From IMG/VR virus record IMGVR_UViG_3300029249_000159: a DNA stretch of 8,321 nucleotides. One strand, 5' to 3'. Positions 1,548 to 8,315 of this stretch are shown one piece after another. The position numbers and the translations under genes are program-made. Under the pieces are notes generated by a model that saw nothing but the letters and a program-made list of their open reading frames with translations, ran no database searches and was not told the DNA's origin. Each line of letters starts with the position of its first letter. Positions within the stretch are counted from its first letter, which is position 1. The stretch comes from a virus (Duplodnaviria > Heunggongvirae > Uroviricota > Caudoviricetes).

Positions 1548-1580
1548 GAAAATAAAAACAAAAACCCGCCGAAGCGGGTT
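1548..1580 (-). terminator. Rho-independent terminator downstream of hok
   Basis: 7-bp GC-rich stem (1563-1569 aacccgc pairing with 1574-1580 gcgggtt, loop cgaa) followed on the minus strand by TTTTGTTTTTATTTT (complement of 1548-1562). Confidence 0.65.
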
Positions 1581-1619
1581 AAGTGCGGGTGCGTTGAGGA
1601 TGCCTGCCACATCAGAGGT

Positions 1620-1648: not shown

Positions 1649-1804
1649 TTACTCCTCAGGTTCGTAAGCTGTGAAGACAGCGACCTCCGTCTGGCCGGTT
1701 CGGATTCGTACCTCGCAGAGGTCTTTCCTCGTTACCAGTGCCGTCACTATGACGGTTAAACAGATGACGATCAGGGCGATTAACATCGCCTTTTGCTGCT
1801 TCAT
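1649..1804 (-). CDS. hokD: Hok/Gef family membrane toxin (51 aa), HokD/RelF-like
   Basis: Translation MKQQKAMLIALIVICLTVIVTALVTRKDLCEVRIRTGQTEVAVFTAYEPEE has the Hok/Gef signature (N-terminal hydrophobic helix, TRKxLCE, GxTEVA, AYE) and matches my recollection of E. coli RelF/HokD. ATG at 1802-1804 with AGGAG 9 nt upstream (complement of 1814-1818). The track ORF 1649..1843 is a TTG-initiated 5' extension of the same frame. Confidence 0.85.
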   Translation of the reverse strand: MKQQKAMLIALIVICLTVIVTALVTRKDLCEVRIRTGQTEVAVFTAYEPEE

Positions 1805-1817
1805 AGCCTGCTTCTCC

Positions 1818-2965
1818 TGTGTAAGTTCACAGAGATATTGCAATTGCCTCCGGATAAGTAAGGGGAGATTGCACTATGCAAATGCAGCATCTGATGGTTG
1901 GCTATCCTAAGTACTACCAAACGGCCGATTATGCGTTGAGGCTTTCAGTGATGGCTGATATAGCAACAATGAGAATGAAGGCTCTGCACTTCTGGGATAA
2001 ACACGGTATTTCTGCAGCTTCTGAAGCCTTTGGCGTGTCCTGCCGCACGCTTTACTGGTGGCGTCAGTTACTGAACAAGGAAGGACCTGAGGGGCTAATC
2101 CCGCACAGTAAGGCACCTCTGGTGCGACGAAAAAAACACTGGCATCCCGATGTGCTGAAAGAGATTCGACGCCTCAGGACAGAGCTGCCGAACCTCGGTA
2201 AAGAGCAGATTTTTGTTCGCCTGAAGCCCTGGTGCGAACAGCGCTATCTGGCCTGTCCGAGTGTTTCCACCATCGGCAGAATGATCGCTGCCGCACATGA
2301 TAAAATGCGGATGATACCTGTGCGTCTGGGATCGCGGGGGAAGGCACTGCTTGTCAAAAAGCGGTCTGCCAAACCCCGCAGGCCAAAGCACTACCGCCCG
2401 GTAAAGACAGGTGAGCTCATTGGGATGGACGCCATTGAGCTCAGAATGGGCGAACTGCGTCGCTATGTCATCACCATGATCGACGAATGCAGCAATTACG
2501 CGCTGGCGCTGGCTGTGCCGTCACTCAACAGTGATATCGTCAATCACTTCTTCAGCCGCGCAGCCCGGTTGTTCCCGGTCGGTATCAGCCAGATAATCAC
2601 AGATAACGGAAAAGAGTTCCTGGGAAACTTCGACAAAACGCTGCAGGAAGCCGCTATCAAACACCTCTGGACCTATCCCTACACGCCAAAAATGAACGCT
2701 ATCTGTGAACGTTTTAACCGGACGTTAAGAGAGCAGTTTATTGAATTTAATGAGATTTTACTCTTTGAAGATCTGGCGCTATTTAACCAGAAGCTGGCGG
2801 AATATCTGGTGCTGTATAACAGCAAAAGACCCCACAAGGCGCTCGCACTAATGACGCCCGTGGAATATATTTTAAAAGAGAATAAAAATTGCAATATGTG
2901 GTGGACCCATACATCTCCTTGCCTTTCGGCACGTAAGAGGCTAACCTACATGTGTCTAGCATGAA
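1818..2965 (+). mobile_element. Putative IS481-family-like insertion sequence (ends not resolved)
   Basis: Single-ORF transposase with N-terminal HTH and DDE core. A TGTGTAAGTTCACAG motif at 1818 resembles the TGT-initiated terminal repeats of IS481-type elements and a ...CTAACCTACA end lies at 2941-2950, but I could not find a convincing matching inverted repeat or target duplication by eye. Boundaries are approximate. Confidence 0.4.
1876..2964 (+). CDS. DDE transposase / integrase catalytic (rve) domain protein, IS481-family-like (362 aa)
   Basis: ATG start; N-terminal helix-turn-helix-like region (GISAASEAFGVSCRTLYWWRQ); candidate catalytic triad in rve-type spacing: D in IGMDAIE, D in ITDNGKEF, E in NAICERFNRTLREQF, followed by the conserved K/R-rich segment YNSKRPHKAL. 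Single ORF rather than the two-frame IS3 arrangement. Confidence 0.75.
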   Translation: MQMQHLMVGYPKYYQTADYALRLSVMADIATMRMKALHFWDKHGISAASEAFGVSCRTLYWWRQLLNKEGPEGLIPHSKAPLVRRKKHWHPDVLKEIRRLRTELPNLGKEQIFVRLKPWCEQRYLACPSVSTIGRMIAAAHDKMRMIPVRLGSRGKALLVKKRSAKPRRPKHYRPVKTGELIGMDAIELRMGELRRYVITMIDECSNYALALAVPSLNSDIVNHFFSRAARLFPVGISQIITDNGKEFLGNFDKTLQEAAIKHLWTYPYTPKMNAICERFNRTLREQFIEFNEILLFEDLALFNQKLAEYLVLYNSKRPHKALALMTPVEYILKENKNCNMWWTHTSPCLSARKRLTYMCLA

Positions 2966-3487
2966 ATTGGCCTCAGATTAATGTTAAGCGTCTTGCAGGA
3001 CGCGTAATGTTAACTGGGGCTTTTCTCTATCTGCCGTTGGTGTTCATGCCTGAGGCAGATAGCCTCAAGCACCCGCAGCCATTCTACTTAACTCCCGTTA
3101 CCTCGCCAATATGAAATCAGTCAGAAAGGCGATCCATAAGAACAATAGCAAGACAATAAATCGCCATTACAGCCGTAATAGCCAGCGCACATTTGAGAAC
3201 CAGCACCACAACCTCCTGTATTGGATGTACACCAGTCCTGATGAATATGAGGCTGTCTCGTCAGTGATTCAATGCAACTATTGGGTATAGTTTCTCTGAT
3301 TTTTTCTGTGGAAATGGGGCTCAACCACTAGTCACCACCAGCACTTCTTTTAATACGCAAAGTCCGACACAAGCTAACCTTCTAGTCCGCTTTGAGCGAA
3401 AAGCAGGAGTTCATAGTTTATTACCCCTGTACTGCCTCTGCTTAGGTGGTCATATCCAGTGTGCCATTATCCTGTTAGGGCTCACTA

Positions 3488-4348: not shown

Positions 4349-4750
4349 TTATCCCTGATAAAATGCCAGTATGCGCTGCATAACTTCACTCTTCCGGCAC
4401 TCGCGACAGATTATGTTCAGACGACTGTCGTAGCGACGTATTTCTCCGTCAGGTAATGACCAGATAAGGTCCGGATCAACCACAGCAGGTTTCTTCACCT
4501 TTGCCCTCGAGAGTTTTTTGCGGGCGTTTTGCCAGTCCTTACGCGCCTGTTCAGACGGGAATACCCCGTAGCCGGAGTTGTATACATCGCCACTGGCTAC
4601 CAGCTCTCTGGCAAGAACGCTCATCAGATATCTAGTCGCACCTGTTTTAGCTTCCAGTTGCCGTAACGTCTCACGACCGCTCTGGCGCACGAGTTCCACC
4701 ACCTGCCCTTTAATTTTTTCCCGCTCTTCTTGTGTAAAAACTTTTGCCAC
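4349..4750 (-). CDS. Hypothetical phage early protein (133 aa), downstream of replication initiator
   Basis: GTG start at 4748-4750 preceded by AAGGGGGA about 4-5 nt upstream; begins MAKVFTQEEREKIKGQVVELV...; located about 40 nt after the stop of the O-like gene, at the position a helicase loader would occupy but too short to be one. No family recognised. Confidence 0.5.
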   Translation of the reverse strand: MAKVFTQEEREKIKGQVVELVRQSGRETLRQLEAKTGATRYLMSVLARELVASGDVYNSGYGVFPSEQARKDWQNARKKLSRAKVKKPAVVDPDLIWSLPDGEIRRYDSRLNIICRECRKSEVMQRILAFYQG

Positions 4751-4790
4751 AAGTCCCCCTTAAAATTACCTCATGACCTGAAATCAACAC

Positions 4791-5756
4791 TTATCCCCTG
4801 AAACCAGGCGGAATTTCTGTATCCGGTTCAGAAATATGATTCACACAACGCTGTACAGGTGAACGTCCCAGGCGGATGACCAGTTCGTCCCATTTTTCGC
4901 GGAGTTTTGACGGGCTCATGATGTTTTTTACCCAGAATGGATCCCGCTGTACCCGACCAAACATTTCGCAAATTTGTCTGTGGCTTCTGCCATCCAGCAT
5001 CCGCATTGTGCGCACGTCATTGGCCCAGGCTGTCCAGTTAGGCTCTTTTGGTCGCATGATCTCTCCATCGTCGCTGGCAGCCTGTTCGTAAAGGTTCACG
5101 ATCCGCCCCCAAATCCACTGCGCACACGCCAAATCCTCCCTGCTACCCCACTGGCGTTTTTTCACACTAAACACAACCGCGTCGGGGTTCCGGGTTAAAA
5201 AATCCTGTTCAGTCGTCTGCGGGTCCGGTTGCGAAGCTTCCGGACGAAAAGTGTTTTTATTCTCTGTAGTAATCTCTGTTGTATTCTCTGTAAGATCATC
5301 AGGCCATTTTGACCCGATGACATTGGGTCGTTTTGAACCAATGGAGCGTTTCATTTTGACCTCTTCCATCGTGTCATTTTGACCTGATGGAGCGGCGCAT
5401 TTTGAACCGATGGATTCGTTCAATTTGCCACCATCTAAAAGCTCGCTCCCATAGTTGATCGTGTAGAAATTGGTCATATCGCGCTTTGATTTATTGAGCT
5501 TTTCACAACGCAAAAGCCCCAGCGTTTTCAGACTTGCAAACGCGCGCTTTAACGTTGACTCTGACCAGAATGGGAACTGTTCCAGCCATTGTTCCGTTGT
5601 GTTATAAATCCAGCGAACACCATCACATTCCATACCGGAGTTGGTATCTCTCAACCAGTAGTGCAGTTGTTGCAAAACAATGGCTTCGTTTAAGCCGATT
5701 TTCATTGCCAGCTGCGTGTTTATAACCAGTGGGCGTTCAGCAAAAAGAAGACTCAT
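4791..5756 (-). CDS. Phage replication initiator, lambda O-like / replisome-organiser family
   Basis: N-terminal winged-helix-like segment typical of phage replication initiators (LNEAIVLQQLHYWLRDTN...GVRWIYNTTEQWLEQFPFWSESTLKRAFASLKTLGLLR); central low-complexity linker (SIGSK repeats) that is encoded by a DNA iteron array, as in lambda O. Start assigned to ATG 5754-5756 (MSLLFAERPLV...), which overlaps the upstream gene by 20 nt; track start 5810 is a TTG, and ATG 5703-5705 is an alternative. Confidence 0.7.
   Translation of the reverse strand: MSLLFAERPLVINTQLAMKIGLNEAIVLQQLHYWLRDTNSGMECDGVRWIYNTTEQWLEQFPFWSESTLKRAFASLKTLGLLRCEKLNKSKRDMTNFYTINYGSELLDGGKLNESIGSKCAAPSGQNDTMEEVKMKRSIGSKRPNVIGSKWPDDLTENTTEITTENKNTFRPEASQPDPQTTEQDFLTRNPDAVVFSVKKRQWGSREDLACAQWIWGRIVNLYEQAASDDGEIMRPKEPNWTAWANDVRTMRMLDGRSHRQICEMFGRVQRDPFWVKNIMSPSKLREKWDELVIRLGRSPVQRCVNHISEPDTEIPPGFRG
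5305..5442. repeat. Iteron array (candidate prophage replication origin) inside the O-like gene
   Basis: Five to six tandem direct repeats with 23-24-bp periodicity, consensus about tCATTTTGAcCnGATGGAgcg, starting at 5306, 5330, 5353, 5376, 5399 and a degenerate copy at 5422. An AT-rich tract with TCTCTGT repeats (about 5250-5300) lies immediately 3' in the initiator's coding direction, mirroring the iterons-plus-AT-rich layout of ori lambda. Confidence 0.7.
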
Positions 5757-6258
5757 AATTCCATCCAGCTTTTTGTTGGTATTGCTGTCGATACGCAAGC
5801 TTGAAAGCAATTGCTTTTTCTATAAGTTCGTCAGTTTCACGATCTACAACGGCAGGATCTGCAAAAAGTAGTCCGGATTCCACCACATCGCCATATTCTT
5901 TATTTAACCCGGCGATCATGTACGTAATACTTTTTCCATCACTGATCTCACGATACAACCTGAAATCACTAATCCGGATAGCCTTCATAATTGCAGGCAC
6001 TAGCGCTGTGAACTTTTCACGCTTATCCCTAGTGTCGATAGCCTTCCAGCGTTCGAATATCTTCACTCGATTAACGCTAAGCGCTCGCTGATCAACCGCG
6101 CCACCTTCATATGTGACACGCTGAACATCGATGTTCGGGCGCTCTTTCAAAGCCCAGAATGCTTCAGTGATTAATATCGTCGCCTGCTCCTGTGTCATTC
6201 CTGGTCGACATATCCAGGCATCCAGAGCCTCACGAGCCTGTTCAGGAGTGATTTTCAT
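5737..6258 (-). CDS. Hypothetical early regulatory protein at the cII/YdaT position (173 aa)
   Basis: ATG at 6256-6258; immediately downstream of the cro-like gene (17-nt overlap) and upstream of the replication initiator, the position occupied by cII in lambda and YdaT in Rac. Assignment is positional only. Confidence 0.45.
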   Translation of the reverse strand: MKITPEQAREALDAWICRPGMTQEQATILITEAFWALKERPNIDVQRVTYEGGAVDQRALSVNRVKIFERWKAIDTRDKREKFTALVPAIMKAIRISDFRLYREISDGKSITYMIAGLNKEYGDVVESGLLFADPAVVDRETDELIEKAIAFKLAYRQQYQQKAGWNYESSFC

Positions 6259-6469
6259 TGTTCAACCGCCCCGCCCGCTTCGTCTTACGATATTCGTCAT
6301 AAACTTTGGGATCATACTGAAGCTCCCCGCCAGATGCCTCCTGTAGACGCATCGCGCGACCTTCAGGAACCAGTATCCCCCAAGCAGCAACACTTGCCAG
6401 TCTCACTCCTGCGGCATTGGCAAGCTTTGTTTTGCTGCCAAAAAAAGTAATTGCGTCAGCTTTAAGCAT
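6242..6469 (-). CDS. dicC: Cro-like regulator, DicC-like (75 aa)
   Basis: Divergent from the dicA-like repressor across an 80-bp operator-bearing intergenic region. ATG at 6467-6469 (track start 6472 is a TTG) with GAGGGGG 5 nt upstream. Sequence MLKADAITFFGSKTKLANAAGVRLASVAAWG... looks like a helix-turn-helix Cro/YdaS-type protein; the DicC name is by synteny and partial recollection. Confidence 0.65.
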   Translation of the reverse strand: MLKADAITFFGSKTKLANAAGVRLASVAAWGILVPEGRAMRLQEASGGELQYDPKVYDEYRKTKRAGRLNNENHS

Positions 6470-6482
6470 CAAAGCCCCCTCT

Positions 6483-6500
6483 TGTTAGACTTTTCTAACA
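6483..6500. promoter_or_regulatory. Operator palindrome in the dicC-dicA intergenic region
   Basis: TGTTAGA-cttt-TCTAACA near-perfect inverted repeat; the same half-site recurs downstream of dicA at 6993-7012. It overlaps the predicted -10/transcription start region of the dicC promoter. Confidence 0.55.
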
Positions 6501-6527
6501 TTATTGTGCGCGGGATACCTAAGTCAA
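6500..6527 (-). promoter_or_regulatory. Candidate dicC (cro-like) promoter
   Basis: Minus strand: -35 TTGACT (complement of 6522-6527), 16-bp spacer, -10 AATAAT (complement of 6500-6505); the predicted start falls inside the operator palindrome. Confidence 0.4.
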
Positions 6528-6549
6528 GAAAAATTAGAATTACCTAACT

Positions 6550-6957
6550 ATGGATACAAGAACCCTAGGCCAGCGAGTTCTGGCGCGACGAAAAGAATTA
6601 CGCTTAACACAACGAGAAGCTGCGCGCCTCGCTGGAGTTGCTCACGTCACAATTTCACAATGGGAAAGAGACGAAACCCAGCCAGTCGGAAAACGATTGT
6701 TTGCTTTAGCGGATGCTCTGAAGTGCTCACCTACATGGCTAATGTTTGGTGACGAAGACAAGGCACCAGTGCCGGCACAAGAACTTCATGTGGAAACAGA
6801 GCTAACTCCCAACCACAAAGAATTGATCGAATTATTCGATGCTCTTCCATCTTCCGAGCAGGAAGCCTTGCTGTCTGAAATGCGCGCAAGAGTAGAAAAC
6901 TTCAACAAACTCTTCGAAGAAATGCTTAAAGCGCGTAAAAATAAATCAATAAAATAA
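6550..6957 (+). CDS. dicA: HTH XRE-family repressor, DicA-like (135 aa)
   Basis: ATG at 6550; N-terminal HTH (LRLTQREAARLAGVAHVTISQWERDETQP) and a C-terminal tail (SSEQEALLSEMRARVENFNKLFEEMLKAR) that closely resemble my recollection of E. coli DicA, same length. A TAGAAT hexamer sits only 9 nt upstream of the ATG, so the transcript may be leaderless like lambda cI from PRM (inference). Confidence 0.85.
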   Translation: MDTRTLGQRVLARRKELRLTQREAARLAGVAHVTISQWERDETQPVGKRLFALADALKCSPTWLMFGDEDKAPVPAQELHVETELTPNHKELIELFDALPSSEQEALLSEMRARVENFNKLFEEMLKARKNKSIK

Positions 6958-8089: not shown

Positions 8090-8147
8090 TGTTGATTGGT
8101 ACCTTTGGCGGCATCAGTTTCATTGCTGGCTGATGTCCGCCCTTTTT
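8090..8147 (+). ncRNA. dicF: DicF-like small regulatory RNA
   Basis: Positioned between the operon ORFs and the downstream gene start as in Qin. Contains the TTTGGCGG...ATCAGTTT core (8104-8119) and a terminal GGCGG/CCGCC stem plus CCCTTTTT (8137-8147) that match my recollection of E. coli DicF, with differences in the loop region. The 5' end is a guess (RNase processing in K-12). Confidence 0.6.
8107..8147 (+). terminator. Intrinsic terminator forming the 3' end of the DicF-like RNA
   Basis: Stem GGCGG (8107-8111) pairing with CCGCC (8137-8141) enclosing an internal structured loop, followed by CTTTTT (8142-8147). Confidence 0.55.
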
Positions 8148-8315
8148 AAAGTGAATTTTGTGATGCGGTGAATGCGGCTGAGCGCACGCGGAACAGTTAA
8201 AACCAAAAACAGTGTTATGGGTGGATTCTCTGTATCCGGCGTTAATTGTTAACTGGTTAACGTCACCTGGAGGCACCAGGCACTGCATCACAAAATTCAT
8301 TATTGAGGACGCGAT

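What the first reader, a model, noticed from the sequence alone, without database searches (positions are those of the whole stretch)
1649..2965. Hok toxin gene with no mok/sok region, abutted by an IS481-like transposase where Qin carries relBE
The Hok ORF looks intact with a strong RBS and its own terminator, but the upstream DNA is replaced almost immediately (from about 1818) by a transposase gene on the opposite strand. There is no room for the usual mok overlap, sok antisense gene, or the relB-relE genes that precede hokD in K-12 Qin. Any hok expression would then depend on an outward or read-through promoter, which could make this an unregulated or IS-activated toxin.
Basis: partly seen in the sequence, partly recalled or inferred. 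Interest (0 to 1): 0.55.

Follow-up and report, generated by a model that had tools for sequence, protein, structure and literature searches.

The report
Hok/sok toxin locus split by IS
The hok toxin gene has not lost its mok/sok control region: a 1.1-kb insertion sequence has moved that region to the far side of the element, and this IS appears to insert just upstream of bacterial promoters, which would explain why it keeps hitting small-toxin genes.

Summary
The observed sequence features are real. There is an intact hokD-type ORF at 1649-1804(-) with an SD and a terminator, and an IS481-family transposase gene (1876-2964,+) starts 13 nt upstream. The reading "no mok/sok" is wrong. The transposase belongs to a discrete 1096-bp IS (1818-2913) with imperfect inverted repeats and a 5-bp duplication, TCTCC. 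Just past its right end lie the sok promoter, Sok RNA, mok start, tac element and hok promoter (2914-3110; Rfam sok 111.9 bits). With the IS removed, the locus is contiguous in 4,027 of 5,426 complete E. coli genomes. relBE was never here; the K-12 relE-hokD arrangement is a separate rearrangement with a breakpoint within about 1 nt of this insertion point. The IS splits mok at codon 16/17 and separates hok from its leader, so hok is most likely silent while Sok is still made. IS-damaged hok loci are already known. The insertion site, however, is not random. Across 22 independent right-flank families, the IS sits exactly 5 bp upstream of a -35 TTG, followed at canonical spacing by G(-14) and a TAnnnT -10. 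Nine of 30 left-flank families are Hok or Ldr toxin start codons. I found no published description of this promoter-directed targeting.

The parts
1563..1580 (-). hok mRNA terminator hairpin with U tract
   Evidence: Terminator scan. Identical to the K-12 hokD 3' end.
1587..1599 (-). fbi-like element (CCUCAACGCACCC) that pairs with the mRNA 5' end
   Evidence: In the fold of the IS-less mRNA, the 5' GGGUGCUUGAGG pairs with this stretch (z=-7.2).
1649..1804 (-). hokD-type toxin ORF (51 aa), intact
   Evidence: Pfam HOK_GEF 1.2e-23. The ORF is identical to K-12 hokD. It is annotated hokD in matching genomes.
1813..1817 (.). left copy of the 5-bp target-site duplication TCTCC; on the hok strand this is the hok SD, GGAGA
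   Evidence: Same pentamer at 2914-2918. It occurs once in IS-less genomes.
1818..2913 (+). 1096-bp IS481-family insertion sequence. Left end TGTGTAAGTTCACAGAGATATTGCAATT; right end AATTGCAATATGTGGTGGACCCATACA.
   Evidence: Inverted-repeat core ATATTGCAATT (I13). Copies 100% identical over positions 1-1096 occur at unrelated sites (H56 and H57).
1876..2964 (+). transposase ORF. 346 codons lie inside the IS with no stop codon; the ORF runs 51 nt into the flank, across the sok promoter.
   Evidence: ORF list. Pfam rve/rve_3/HTH. NCBIfam transpos_IS481 at 221.4 bits against a cut-off of 224.
2914..2918 (.). right copy of the target-site duplication TCTCC
2919..2947 (+). sok promoter: -35 TTGCCT (2919-2924), 17-nt spacer, -10 TAACCT (2942-2947)
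   Evidence: Same layout as K-12 sokC, TTGACC-17-CACTCT, whose annotated RNA 5' end lies 7 nt after the -10. The following heptamer ACATGTG is identical.
2954..3030 (+). Sok antisense RNA; ends inferred by analogy with sokC
   Evidence: Long hairpin followed by GGGGCUUUUCUCU. MFE -30.5 kcal/mol, z=-5.5. It is antisense to the mok start region.
2783..2962 (-). mok start (ATG at 2962-2960), now fused to antisense IS sequence and stopping at 2783. Without the IS it is in frame with hok, giving a Hok with 19 extra N-terminal residues.
   Evidence: ORF list. Restored sequence. K-12 mokC and hokC share a stop codon and differ by 19 codons.
2914..3074 (-). hok mRNA 5' leader: tac, ucb, mok SD and start, Sok target
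   Evidence: Rfam RF01794, model positions 1-~143, 111.9 bits.
3081..3109 (-). hok promoter TTGGCG-17-TAGAAT, 7 nt upstream of the leader's first base
   Evidence: Promoter scan, 9 of 12 matches. Its position fits position 1 of the Rfam model.

Best explanation
This is a complete hokD-type hok/mok/sok type I toxin-antitoxin locus of a Qin-like lambdoid prophage, cut in two by a 1096-bp IS481-family insertion sequence. The IS entered 13 nt upstream of the hok ATG and duplicated TCTCC, which is the hok SD on the other strand.

Shown:
- The hok ORF, 3' UTR and terminator lie left of the IS.
- The sok promoter begins 5 bp from the IS right end. Sok RNA, the mok start, the leader and the hok promoter follow it.

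Inferred consequences:
- mok translation now ends inside the IS, about 1 kb before hok, so the mok-hok coupling needed for Hok synthesis is lost.
- Transcripts from the hok promoter must cross 1.1 kb of untranslated antisense IS RNA.
- hok is therefore most likely silent, while Sok is still made.

Why the IS sits exactly here (shown statistically, mechanism inferred): this IS inserts in one orientation with its right end 5 bp upstream of the -35 hexamer of sigma70-type promoters. The sok promoter is such a target. Because it lies back-to-back with the hok start codon, hok and ldr loci are hit repeatedly. My guess is that the transpososome reads promoters through promoter-bound RNA polymerase or the DNA bend it makes.
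For: Locus structure:
- IS boundaries and duplication.
- Identical IS copies at other sites: (H56, H57).
- The IS-less joined sequence is contiguous at 99.5% identity over 413 nt. It covers at least 80% of the query in 4,027 of 5,426 genomes.
- Rfam sok, full length, 111.9 bits, at 2908-3074(-).
- hok promoter. Sok hairpin z=-5.5. tac/fbi pairing in the restored mRNA z=-7.2.
- mok in frame with hok, as for K-12 mokC/hokC.
- Truncated Mok means no Hok translation: PMC9841398, Table 1.
- The same junction is found in 33 complete genomes. It also occurs in 19 loci carrying at least 6 sok alleles, with IS copies 97.5-100% identical.

Targeting:
- In 22 right-flank families, the mean match to TTGACA-17-TATAAT is 6.3 of 12 at offset 5, against 2.1-3.7 at 23 other offsets.
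- TTG occurs in 12 of 22 families, against 0-2 at other offsets. At 1/64 per site, P is about 1e-16.
- G at -14 occurs in 16 of 22.
- The left flanks show no such signal.
- Two target promoters are validated by annotated RNA 5' ends: sokC and rdlD.
- 9 of 30 left-flank families are Hok or Ldr ORFs starting 3-15 nt from the IS tip.
Against: - There are no expression data. Silencing of hok and continued Sok synthesis are inferences.
- The Hok ORF is intact in all 19 IS-bearing loci. This could mean residual function, or simply recent insertion.
- No terminator is predicted on the minus strand inside the IS, so a read-through hok transcript is possible.
- IS insertion replaces the DNA upstream of the sok -35, which might weaken the promoter.
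- On targeting: several target promoters are homologous sok promoters, so they are not fully independent. 5-6 flank families do not fit; some of these are rearranged or degenerate copies.
- Only retained insertions are sampled, so selection contributes to an unknown extent.
- Involvement of RNA polymerase is untested.
Confidence: 0.82

Rival explanations
1. One reading: hok is an orphan with no mok/sok. An IS replaced the upstream region (relBE in Qin), leaving an unregulated toxin or one activated from an IS outward promoter.
For: hok keeps an SD, because the duplication regenerates GGAGA, and it keeps its terminator. It is separated from its own leader. An in-frame TTG ORF starts inside the IS (1649-1843). 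PGAP called a similar IS-hok fusion a 'Hok/Gef family protein' on a plasmid.
Against: mok, sok and the leader are present at 2914-3110. The IS is a simple insertion into a full locus. No sigma70-like outward promoter is predicted at the IS left end. The predicted local fold pairs the SD with IS-end sequence (weak evidence). The arrangement is carried stably in 33 complete genomes, which would not be expected for a deregulated lethal toxin.
Confidence: 0.08
2. The IS inserts more or less randomly. Its repeated presence at hok and ldr start codons reflects selection for insertions that silence toxins, as is assumed for IS150 in evolution experiments, and not promoter targeting.
For: IS150 insertions recur next to hok/sok and ldr loci in evolving E. 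coli and are read as inactivation of redundant functions (PMC5419217). K-12 hokA, hokC and hokE carry IS elements (PMC12214031; IS186 lies 20 nt past hokC). Only retained insertions are sampled here.
Against: Selection does not explain three things: the exact 5-bp register to the -35, the fixed orientation, or the same register at non-toxin promoters. Those include putative lambdoid late promoters upstream of holin genes and other promoter-like sites. 100%-identical IS copies sit at the same nucleotide in different sok alleles.
Confidence: 0.12
3. The targeting is real, but the transposase reads DNA directly, recognising a short motif such as NNNNN-TTG or local DNA shape. RNA polymerase plays no part.
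For: TTG directly after the duplication is the strongest signal (16, 16 and 15 of 22). Many transposases have short target consensus sequences; from memory, IS481 itself uses NCTAGN.
Against: The -14 G (16 of 22) and the -10 T1/A2/T6 positions, 21-28 bp from the joint, are also enriched at canonical promoter spacing. A transposase motif would not be expected to mimic this.
Confidence: 0.3

Closest known systems
hok/mok/sok of plasmid R1 and chromosomal hokC/mokC/sokC of E. coli (type I toxin-antitoxin)
   Same: Hok/Gef toxin ORF; overlapping mok frame; antisense Sok with its promoter between the mok and hok starts; a 5' tac element pairing with a 3' fbi element; full-length match to the Rfam sok model.
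   Different: A 1096-bp IS sits between the sok -35 and the hok ATG, so the mok frame and the mRNA are interrupted. As in mokC, mok is in frame with hok, whereas I recall R1 mok being out of frame. The Sok hairpin is longer: about 77 nt against 59 nt for sokC.
IS-inactivated hok loci of E. coli K-12 and B (hokA, hokC, hokE, hokX; Pedersen & Gerdes 1999 as cited in PMC12214031 and PMC7232551)
   Same: A chromosomal or prophage hok/sok locus damaged by an insertion sequence while the toxin ORF stays intact.
   Different: In K-12, IS186 lies 20 nt downstream of hokC and disrupts the fbi region (PMC3562002). Here the IS is upstream, inside mok and the hok SD. It belongs to the IS481 family, and its position follows from a promoter-linked target rule.
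K-12 Qin relB-relE-hokD (relF)
   Same: The hokD ORF, SD and 3' UTR are essentially identical, and so is the downstream neighbour rem. Homology to the full locus stops 14 nt upstream of the ATG, within 0-1 nt of the IS left junction here.
   Different: K-12 has relE-proximal DNA upstream and no mok, sok or leader anywhere nearby. That arrangement is found in 1,201 of 5,426 genomes. The window has no relBE and keeps the whole leader beyond the IS.
IS481 family insertion sequences
   Same: A single DDE (rve) transposase with an N-terminal HTH; ends beginning TGT; about 1.1 kb long; an ORF that runs to or through the right end.
   Different: The NCBIfam score is just under the family cut-off (221.4 against 224). 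The duplication is 5 bp and the target is a promoter, whereas from memory IS481 makes a 6-bp NCTAGN duplication. PGAP gives the element no specific IS name.
IS150 hot spots next to hok/sok and ldr loci in experimental evolution (PMC5419217)
   Same: Recurrent, independent IS insertions at type I toxin-antitoxin loci of both the Hok and Ldr families.
   Different: A different IS family (IS3). No fixed register to the antitoxin promoter has been reported, and the pattern is interpreted as selection.

Membership tests
[quoted passage not shown] | Hok/Gef-family small membrane toxin ORF | tested here: met
   Pfam PF01848, 82.9 bits, E=1.2e-23. The ORF is identical to K-12 hokD.
[quoted passage not shown] | cis-encoded antisense Sok RNA gene with its own promoter, overlapping the mok translation start | tested here: met
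   Rfam RF01794 at 111.9 bits against a gathering score of 59. The promoter and start align with annotated K-12 sokC. Hairpin z=-5.5. Expression was not tested.
[quoted passage not shown] | mok reading frame overlapping hok, to which hok translation is coupled | tested here: not met
   The mok ATG is present at 2962-2960. The frame is broken by the IS after codon 16 and stops at 2783. It is met only in the IS-less reconstruction.
[quoted passage not shown] | 5' tac and 3' fbi long-range pairing in the full-length mRNA | tested here: met
   Predicted in the restored 414-nt mRNA. In the actual locus the two elements lie about 1.5 kb apart on the transcript.
[quoted passage not shown] | post-segregational killing or toxicity controlled by Sok | not testable with these tools
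   This needs cloning, Northern blots and killing assays.
IS481 family insertion sequence | DDE transposase matching the family profile | tested here: inconclusive
   NCBIfam NF033577 at 221.4 bits against a cut-off of 224, far ahead of IS3 at 98 bits. Pfam rve, rve_3 and HTH_32, plus a weak LZ_Tnp_IS481 match. PGAP annotates it as an IS481 family transposase.
IS481 family insertion sequence | discrete element with terminal inverted repeats and a target-site duplication, present in several copies | tested here: met
   Inverted repeats. 5-bp duplications at six sites: TCTCC, CTGTG, CCTCC, AGCAC, CACTC and TCCAC. Matches in 1,420 genomes, with up to 38 places in a single genome.
K-12-type relBE-hokD operon | relB and relE immediately upstream of hokD | tested here: not met
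   There is no relBE in the window. The alignment with K-12 diverges 14 nt upstream of the hok ATG.

The most novel reading that the evidence does not exclude
The IS in this window is a promoter-homing element. It integrates in a fixed orientation exactly 5 bp upstream of the -35 hexamer of sigma70 promoters, probably by sensing promoter-bound RNA polymerase. As a by-product it systematically disconnects type I toxins (Hok, Ldr) from their leaders while sparing the antitoxin promoter. The K-12 relE-hokD breakpoint, which lies at the same nucleotide and carries the same ACA as the IS tip, may be a scar of such an event. I found no description of this target rule in four literature searches. ISfinder and subscription journals could not be checked.
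Probability: 0.5. Interest if true: 0.75.

Novelty: new variant of a known kind. Interest (0 to 1): 0.55.

Why it matters
For annotation, a 'lone' hok next to a transposase should be read as a split hok/sok locus. The antitoxin should be looked for on the far side of the IS before any claim of an unregulated toxin.

For toxin-antitoxin biology, the compact back-to-back layout of toxin start codon and antitoxin promoter makes Hok and Ldr loci natural victims of a promoter-seeking IS. This offers a mechanistic reason, besides selection, for the long-noted IS damage to chromosomal hok loci. It also produces cells that keep Sok without Hok. Such cells might resist killing by an incoming hok locus that has the same Sok specificity.

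For transposon biology, an IS that reads core promoters would be a bacterial counterpart of eukaryotic elements that integrate next to Pol III initiation complexes. It is directly testable.

Tried and rejected
- relBE remnants: none found in the ORF list or Pfam, and the K-12 alignment shows no similarity upstream of -14.
- Outward promoter at the IS left end: none at 9 or more of 12 matches; manual inspection found only poor -10 candidates.
- IS name: PGAP gives only the family. The species-representative genome scan found the IS only in E. albertii. No paper links IS481-type elements to hok.
- The review I recalled as PMC2593563 is not held.
- Weak Rfam hits were discounted as below threshold: isrK-like at 1559-1640, E=0.023, which is just the hok 3' hairpins; ceN48; sR19.
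- I asked whether the IS tip mimics the target, that is whether the TTCACA inside the left inverted repeat resembles a -35. I rejected this because the targets have G, not C, at position 3.
- I could not list all 38 copies in the copy-rich strain IAL7255, because the search tool reports only one place per record. An unselected recent burst was therefore not analysed.

Full report
**What is in the sequence**

The minus-strand ORF 1649-1804 encodes a 51-aa Hok/Gef toxin (Pfam PF01848, E=1.2e-23). Its DNA is identical to K-12 hokD from 14 nt upstream of the ATG through the stop codon. The 3' UTR differs at one position. It keeps a GGAGA Shine-Dalgarno and the terminator at 1563-1580.

The plus-strand ORF 1876-2964 is a DDE transposase with rve, rve_3 and HTH domains. 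Its best family match is IS481, at 221.4 bits against a cut-off of 224. PGAP annotates it as an IS481 family transposase in matching genomes. The nearest record is a lambdoid prophage on the 420-kb plasmid pDCE7-1 of a pig E. coli, with the gene order ydfU-like, rem, hokD, IS.

**The transposase belongs to a discrete IS**

- The imperfect terminal repeats are TGTGTAAGTTCACAGAGATATTGCAATT and AATTGCAATATGTGGTGGACCCATACA. They bound 1818-2913, which is 1096 bp.
- The pentamer TCTCC is present on both sides, at 1813-1817 and 2914-2918.
- The same 1096 bp occur at 100% identity over positions 1-1096 at unrelated places. One copy lies next to an ldr gene and another at a truncated ppc.
- Matches to the IS occur in 1,420 of 5,426 complete E. 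coli genomes.

**The mok/sok region is not missing**

Rfam's sok model (RF01794) is built on the hok-leader strand. It matches 2908-3074(-) over its full length, at 111.9 bits and E=1.7e-25. The alignment stays convincing up to GGCAAGGAGA, which is the IS joint.

Reading leftwards on the minus strand, I find:
- the hok promoter, TTGGCG-17-TAGAAT, at 3109-3081;
- the leader, starting at about 3074 with the tac sequence GGGUGCUUGAGG;
- the mok SD and its ATG at 2962-2960.

On the plus strand I find:
- the sok promoter, TTGCCT (2919-2924), a 17-nt spacer, then TAACCT (2942-2947);
- a Sok RNA from about 2954 to about 3030. It folds into a long hairpin followed by GGGGCUUUUCUCU (z=-5.5).

The promoter layout and the heptamer after the -10 match K-12 sokC, whose RNA 5' end is annotated.

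Joining window ..1817 to 2919.. restores a normal locus. This joined sequence is contiguous at up to 99.5% identity over 413 nt. It covers at least 80% of the query in 4,027 of 5,426 genomes. In the restored mRNA, mok is in frame with hok and 19 codons longer, exactly as for K-12 mokC and hokC, which share a stop codon. The 5' end pairs with CCUCAACGCACCC near the 3' end, which is the tac/fbi pairing (z=-7.2).

**relBE was never here**

The K-12 relE-hokD arrangement occurs in 1,201 of 5,426 genomes. In the other genomes the match to K-12 stops 14 nt upstream of the hok ATG. The literature already describes K-12 hokD as inactivated by rearrangement, and hokA, hokC and hokE as inactivated by IS elements (PMC12214031, PMC7232551).

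One curiosity remains. The K-12 breakpoint lies within 0-1 nt of the IS left junction. K-12 reads ACA|GGAGA, like the IS tip (..CACA|GGAGA). The intact locus reads CAA|GGAGA.

**Likely consequence (inferred)**

- The IS splits mok after codon 16. The frame now runs into antisense IS sequence and stops at 2783.
- In the R1 system, mutations that truncate Mok abolish Hok translation (PMC9841398).
- Any transcript from the hok promoter must cross 1.1 kb of untranslated RNA.
- No sigma70-like outward promoter is predicted at the IS left end.
- The predicted local fold pairs the SD with IS-end sequence (weak evidence).

I therefore expect hok to be silent and Sok still to be made from its intact core promoter. 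Against this, the Hok ORF is intact in all 19 IS-bearing loci examined, no terminator is predicted inside the IS on the hok strand, and there are no expression data.

**Why the IS is exactly there**

The same junction and duplication occur in 33 complete genomes. They also occur in 19 loci drawn from genomes, metagenomes and IMG/VR. Those loci carry at least 6 different sok alleles, with IS copies 97.5-100% identical. This points to repeated hits on one nucleotide.

I scanned public contigs for the IS ends:
- There are 30 distinct left-flank families. Nine are Hok or Ldr toxin ORFs starting 3-15 nt from the IS tip and reading away from it: hokD, hokA, hokE, an E. albertii hokE-like gene, four other hok types and ldr. 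All were confirmed by Pfam.
- There are 22 right-flank families. Laid out as a 5-bp duplication followed by flank, TTG follows the duplication in 12 of 22. At other offsets the count is 0-2. At 1/64 per site, P is about 1e-16.
- The mean match to TTGACA-17-TATAAT is 6.3 of 12, against 2.1-3.7 at 23 other offsets.
- G at -14 occurs in 16 of 22. The -10 positions T1, A2 and T6 are enriched.
- The left flanks show nothing comparable.

Two of these promoters are validated by annotated RNA 5' ends, sokC and rdlD. Others lie upstream of phage holin genes and look like lambdoid late promoters.

The IS therefore appears to insert, in one orientation, 5 bp upstream of the -35 of sigma70 promoters. In type I toxin-antitoxin loci the antitoxin promoter is back-to-back with the toxin start codon, so the toxin is uncoupled while the antitoxin promoter is spared. 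That three separate promoter elements are enriched at canonical spacing suggests recognition through promoter-bound RNA polymerase or the bend it makes. That step is a guess.

**What is known and what may be new**

IS-damaged hok loci are known, as are recurrent IS150 insertions next to hok/sok and ldr (PMC5419217). As a locus, this is another member of a known kind.

The promoter-register rule for this IS did not turn up in four literature searches. ISfinder and much of the subscription literature could not be checked.

**Verdict**

The most interesting result is the target rule of the IS, which is strongly supported statistically but untested experimentally.

Noticed in passing
window 1805-1818 compared with L002 3776-3792 (K-12 relE-hokD junction): The K-12 hokD truncation breakpoint lies within 0-1 nt of this IS's left junction. 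K-12 carries ACA before GGAGA, like the IS tip, whereas intact loci have CAA. This could be a scar of an IS-mediated rearrangement, or it could be coincidence.
   Followed up: partly
L008 1380-1501 and 2596-2640 (E. coli 2015C-3163, ldr/rdl repeat region): A 100%-identical IS copy sits 13 nt upstream of an ldr toxin ATG, with duplication CTGTG. Its right end is 5 bp from the rdl promoter TTGTAA-17-TATTCT. K-12 annotation places the RdlD 5' end 7 nt after that -10.
   Followed up: yes
L009 and L010 (E. albertii NBRC 107761 contigs): One contig starts exactly at GGAGAAGCAGGCTATG of hokD and ends in the IS left end 11 nt past the hokD terminator U-tract. hokD therefore seems to be flanked by IS copies on both sides. 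A second contig has the IS 3 nt upstream of a hokE-like ATG.
   Followed up: partly
window 1876-2964: The transposase frame has no stop codon inside the IS: there are exactly 346 codons up to base 2913. Its C-terminal tail and stop therefore depend on the insertion site. Here it reads across the sok promoter and stops at TGA 2962-2964, which overlaps the mok ATG on the other strand.
   Followed up: partly
window 8094-8142 (+) and 8154-8294 (+): There is a DicF-like RNA (38.8 bits, below the gathering score of 48) and an STnc100-like match (35.5 bits, below 47). In the matching plasmid record, dicB follows shortly after the window ends. This is a Qin/Rac-type dicF-dicB region.
   Followed up: no
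window 3117-3209 (-): A 30-aa very hydrophobic ORF (MVLVLKCALAITAVMAIYCLAIVLMDRLSD) lies just upstream of the hok promoter on the same strand. It has no Pfam match and is unannotated in the matching record. It could be a chance ORF or a small membrane peptide.
   Followed up: no
L005 and about 40 metagenome loci (ColV-type plasmids, between iss and iroB): The most common copy of this IS is a degenerate one: about 93% identical, 1085-1086 bp, frameshifted, first base changed, with no matching duplication. It sits at a fixed plasmid site that does not fit the promoter register.
   Followed up: partly
L004 2347-2571 (plasmid pJSWP006_2): PGAP annotates a 74-aa 'Hok/Gef family protein' whose N-terminus is translated from a 71-nt remnant of this IS's left end. 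This is an annotation artefact of the same kind of junction.
   Followed up: yes
window 4349-6957: The prophage immunity and replication region contains DUF977, an O-like replication protein, a YdaT-family protein, Cro-like and cI-like repressors. The whole prophage sits on a record deposited as a 420-kb plasmid.
   Followed up: no
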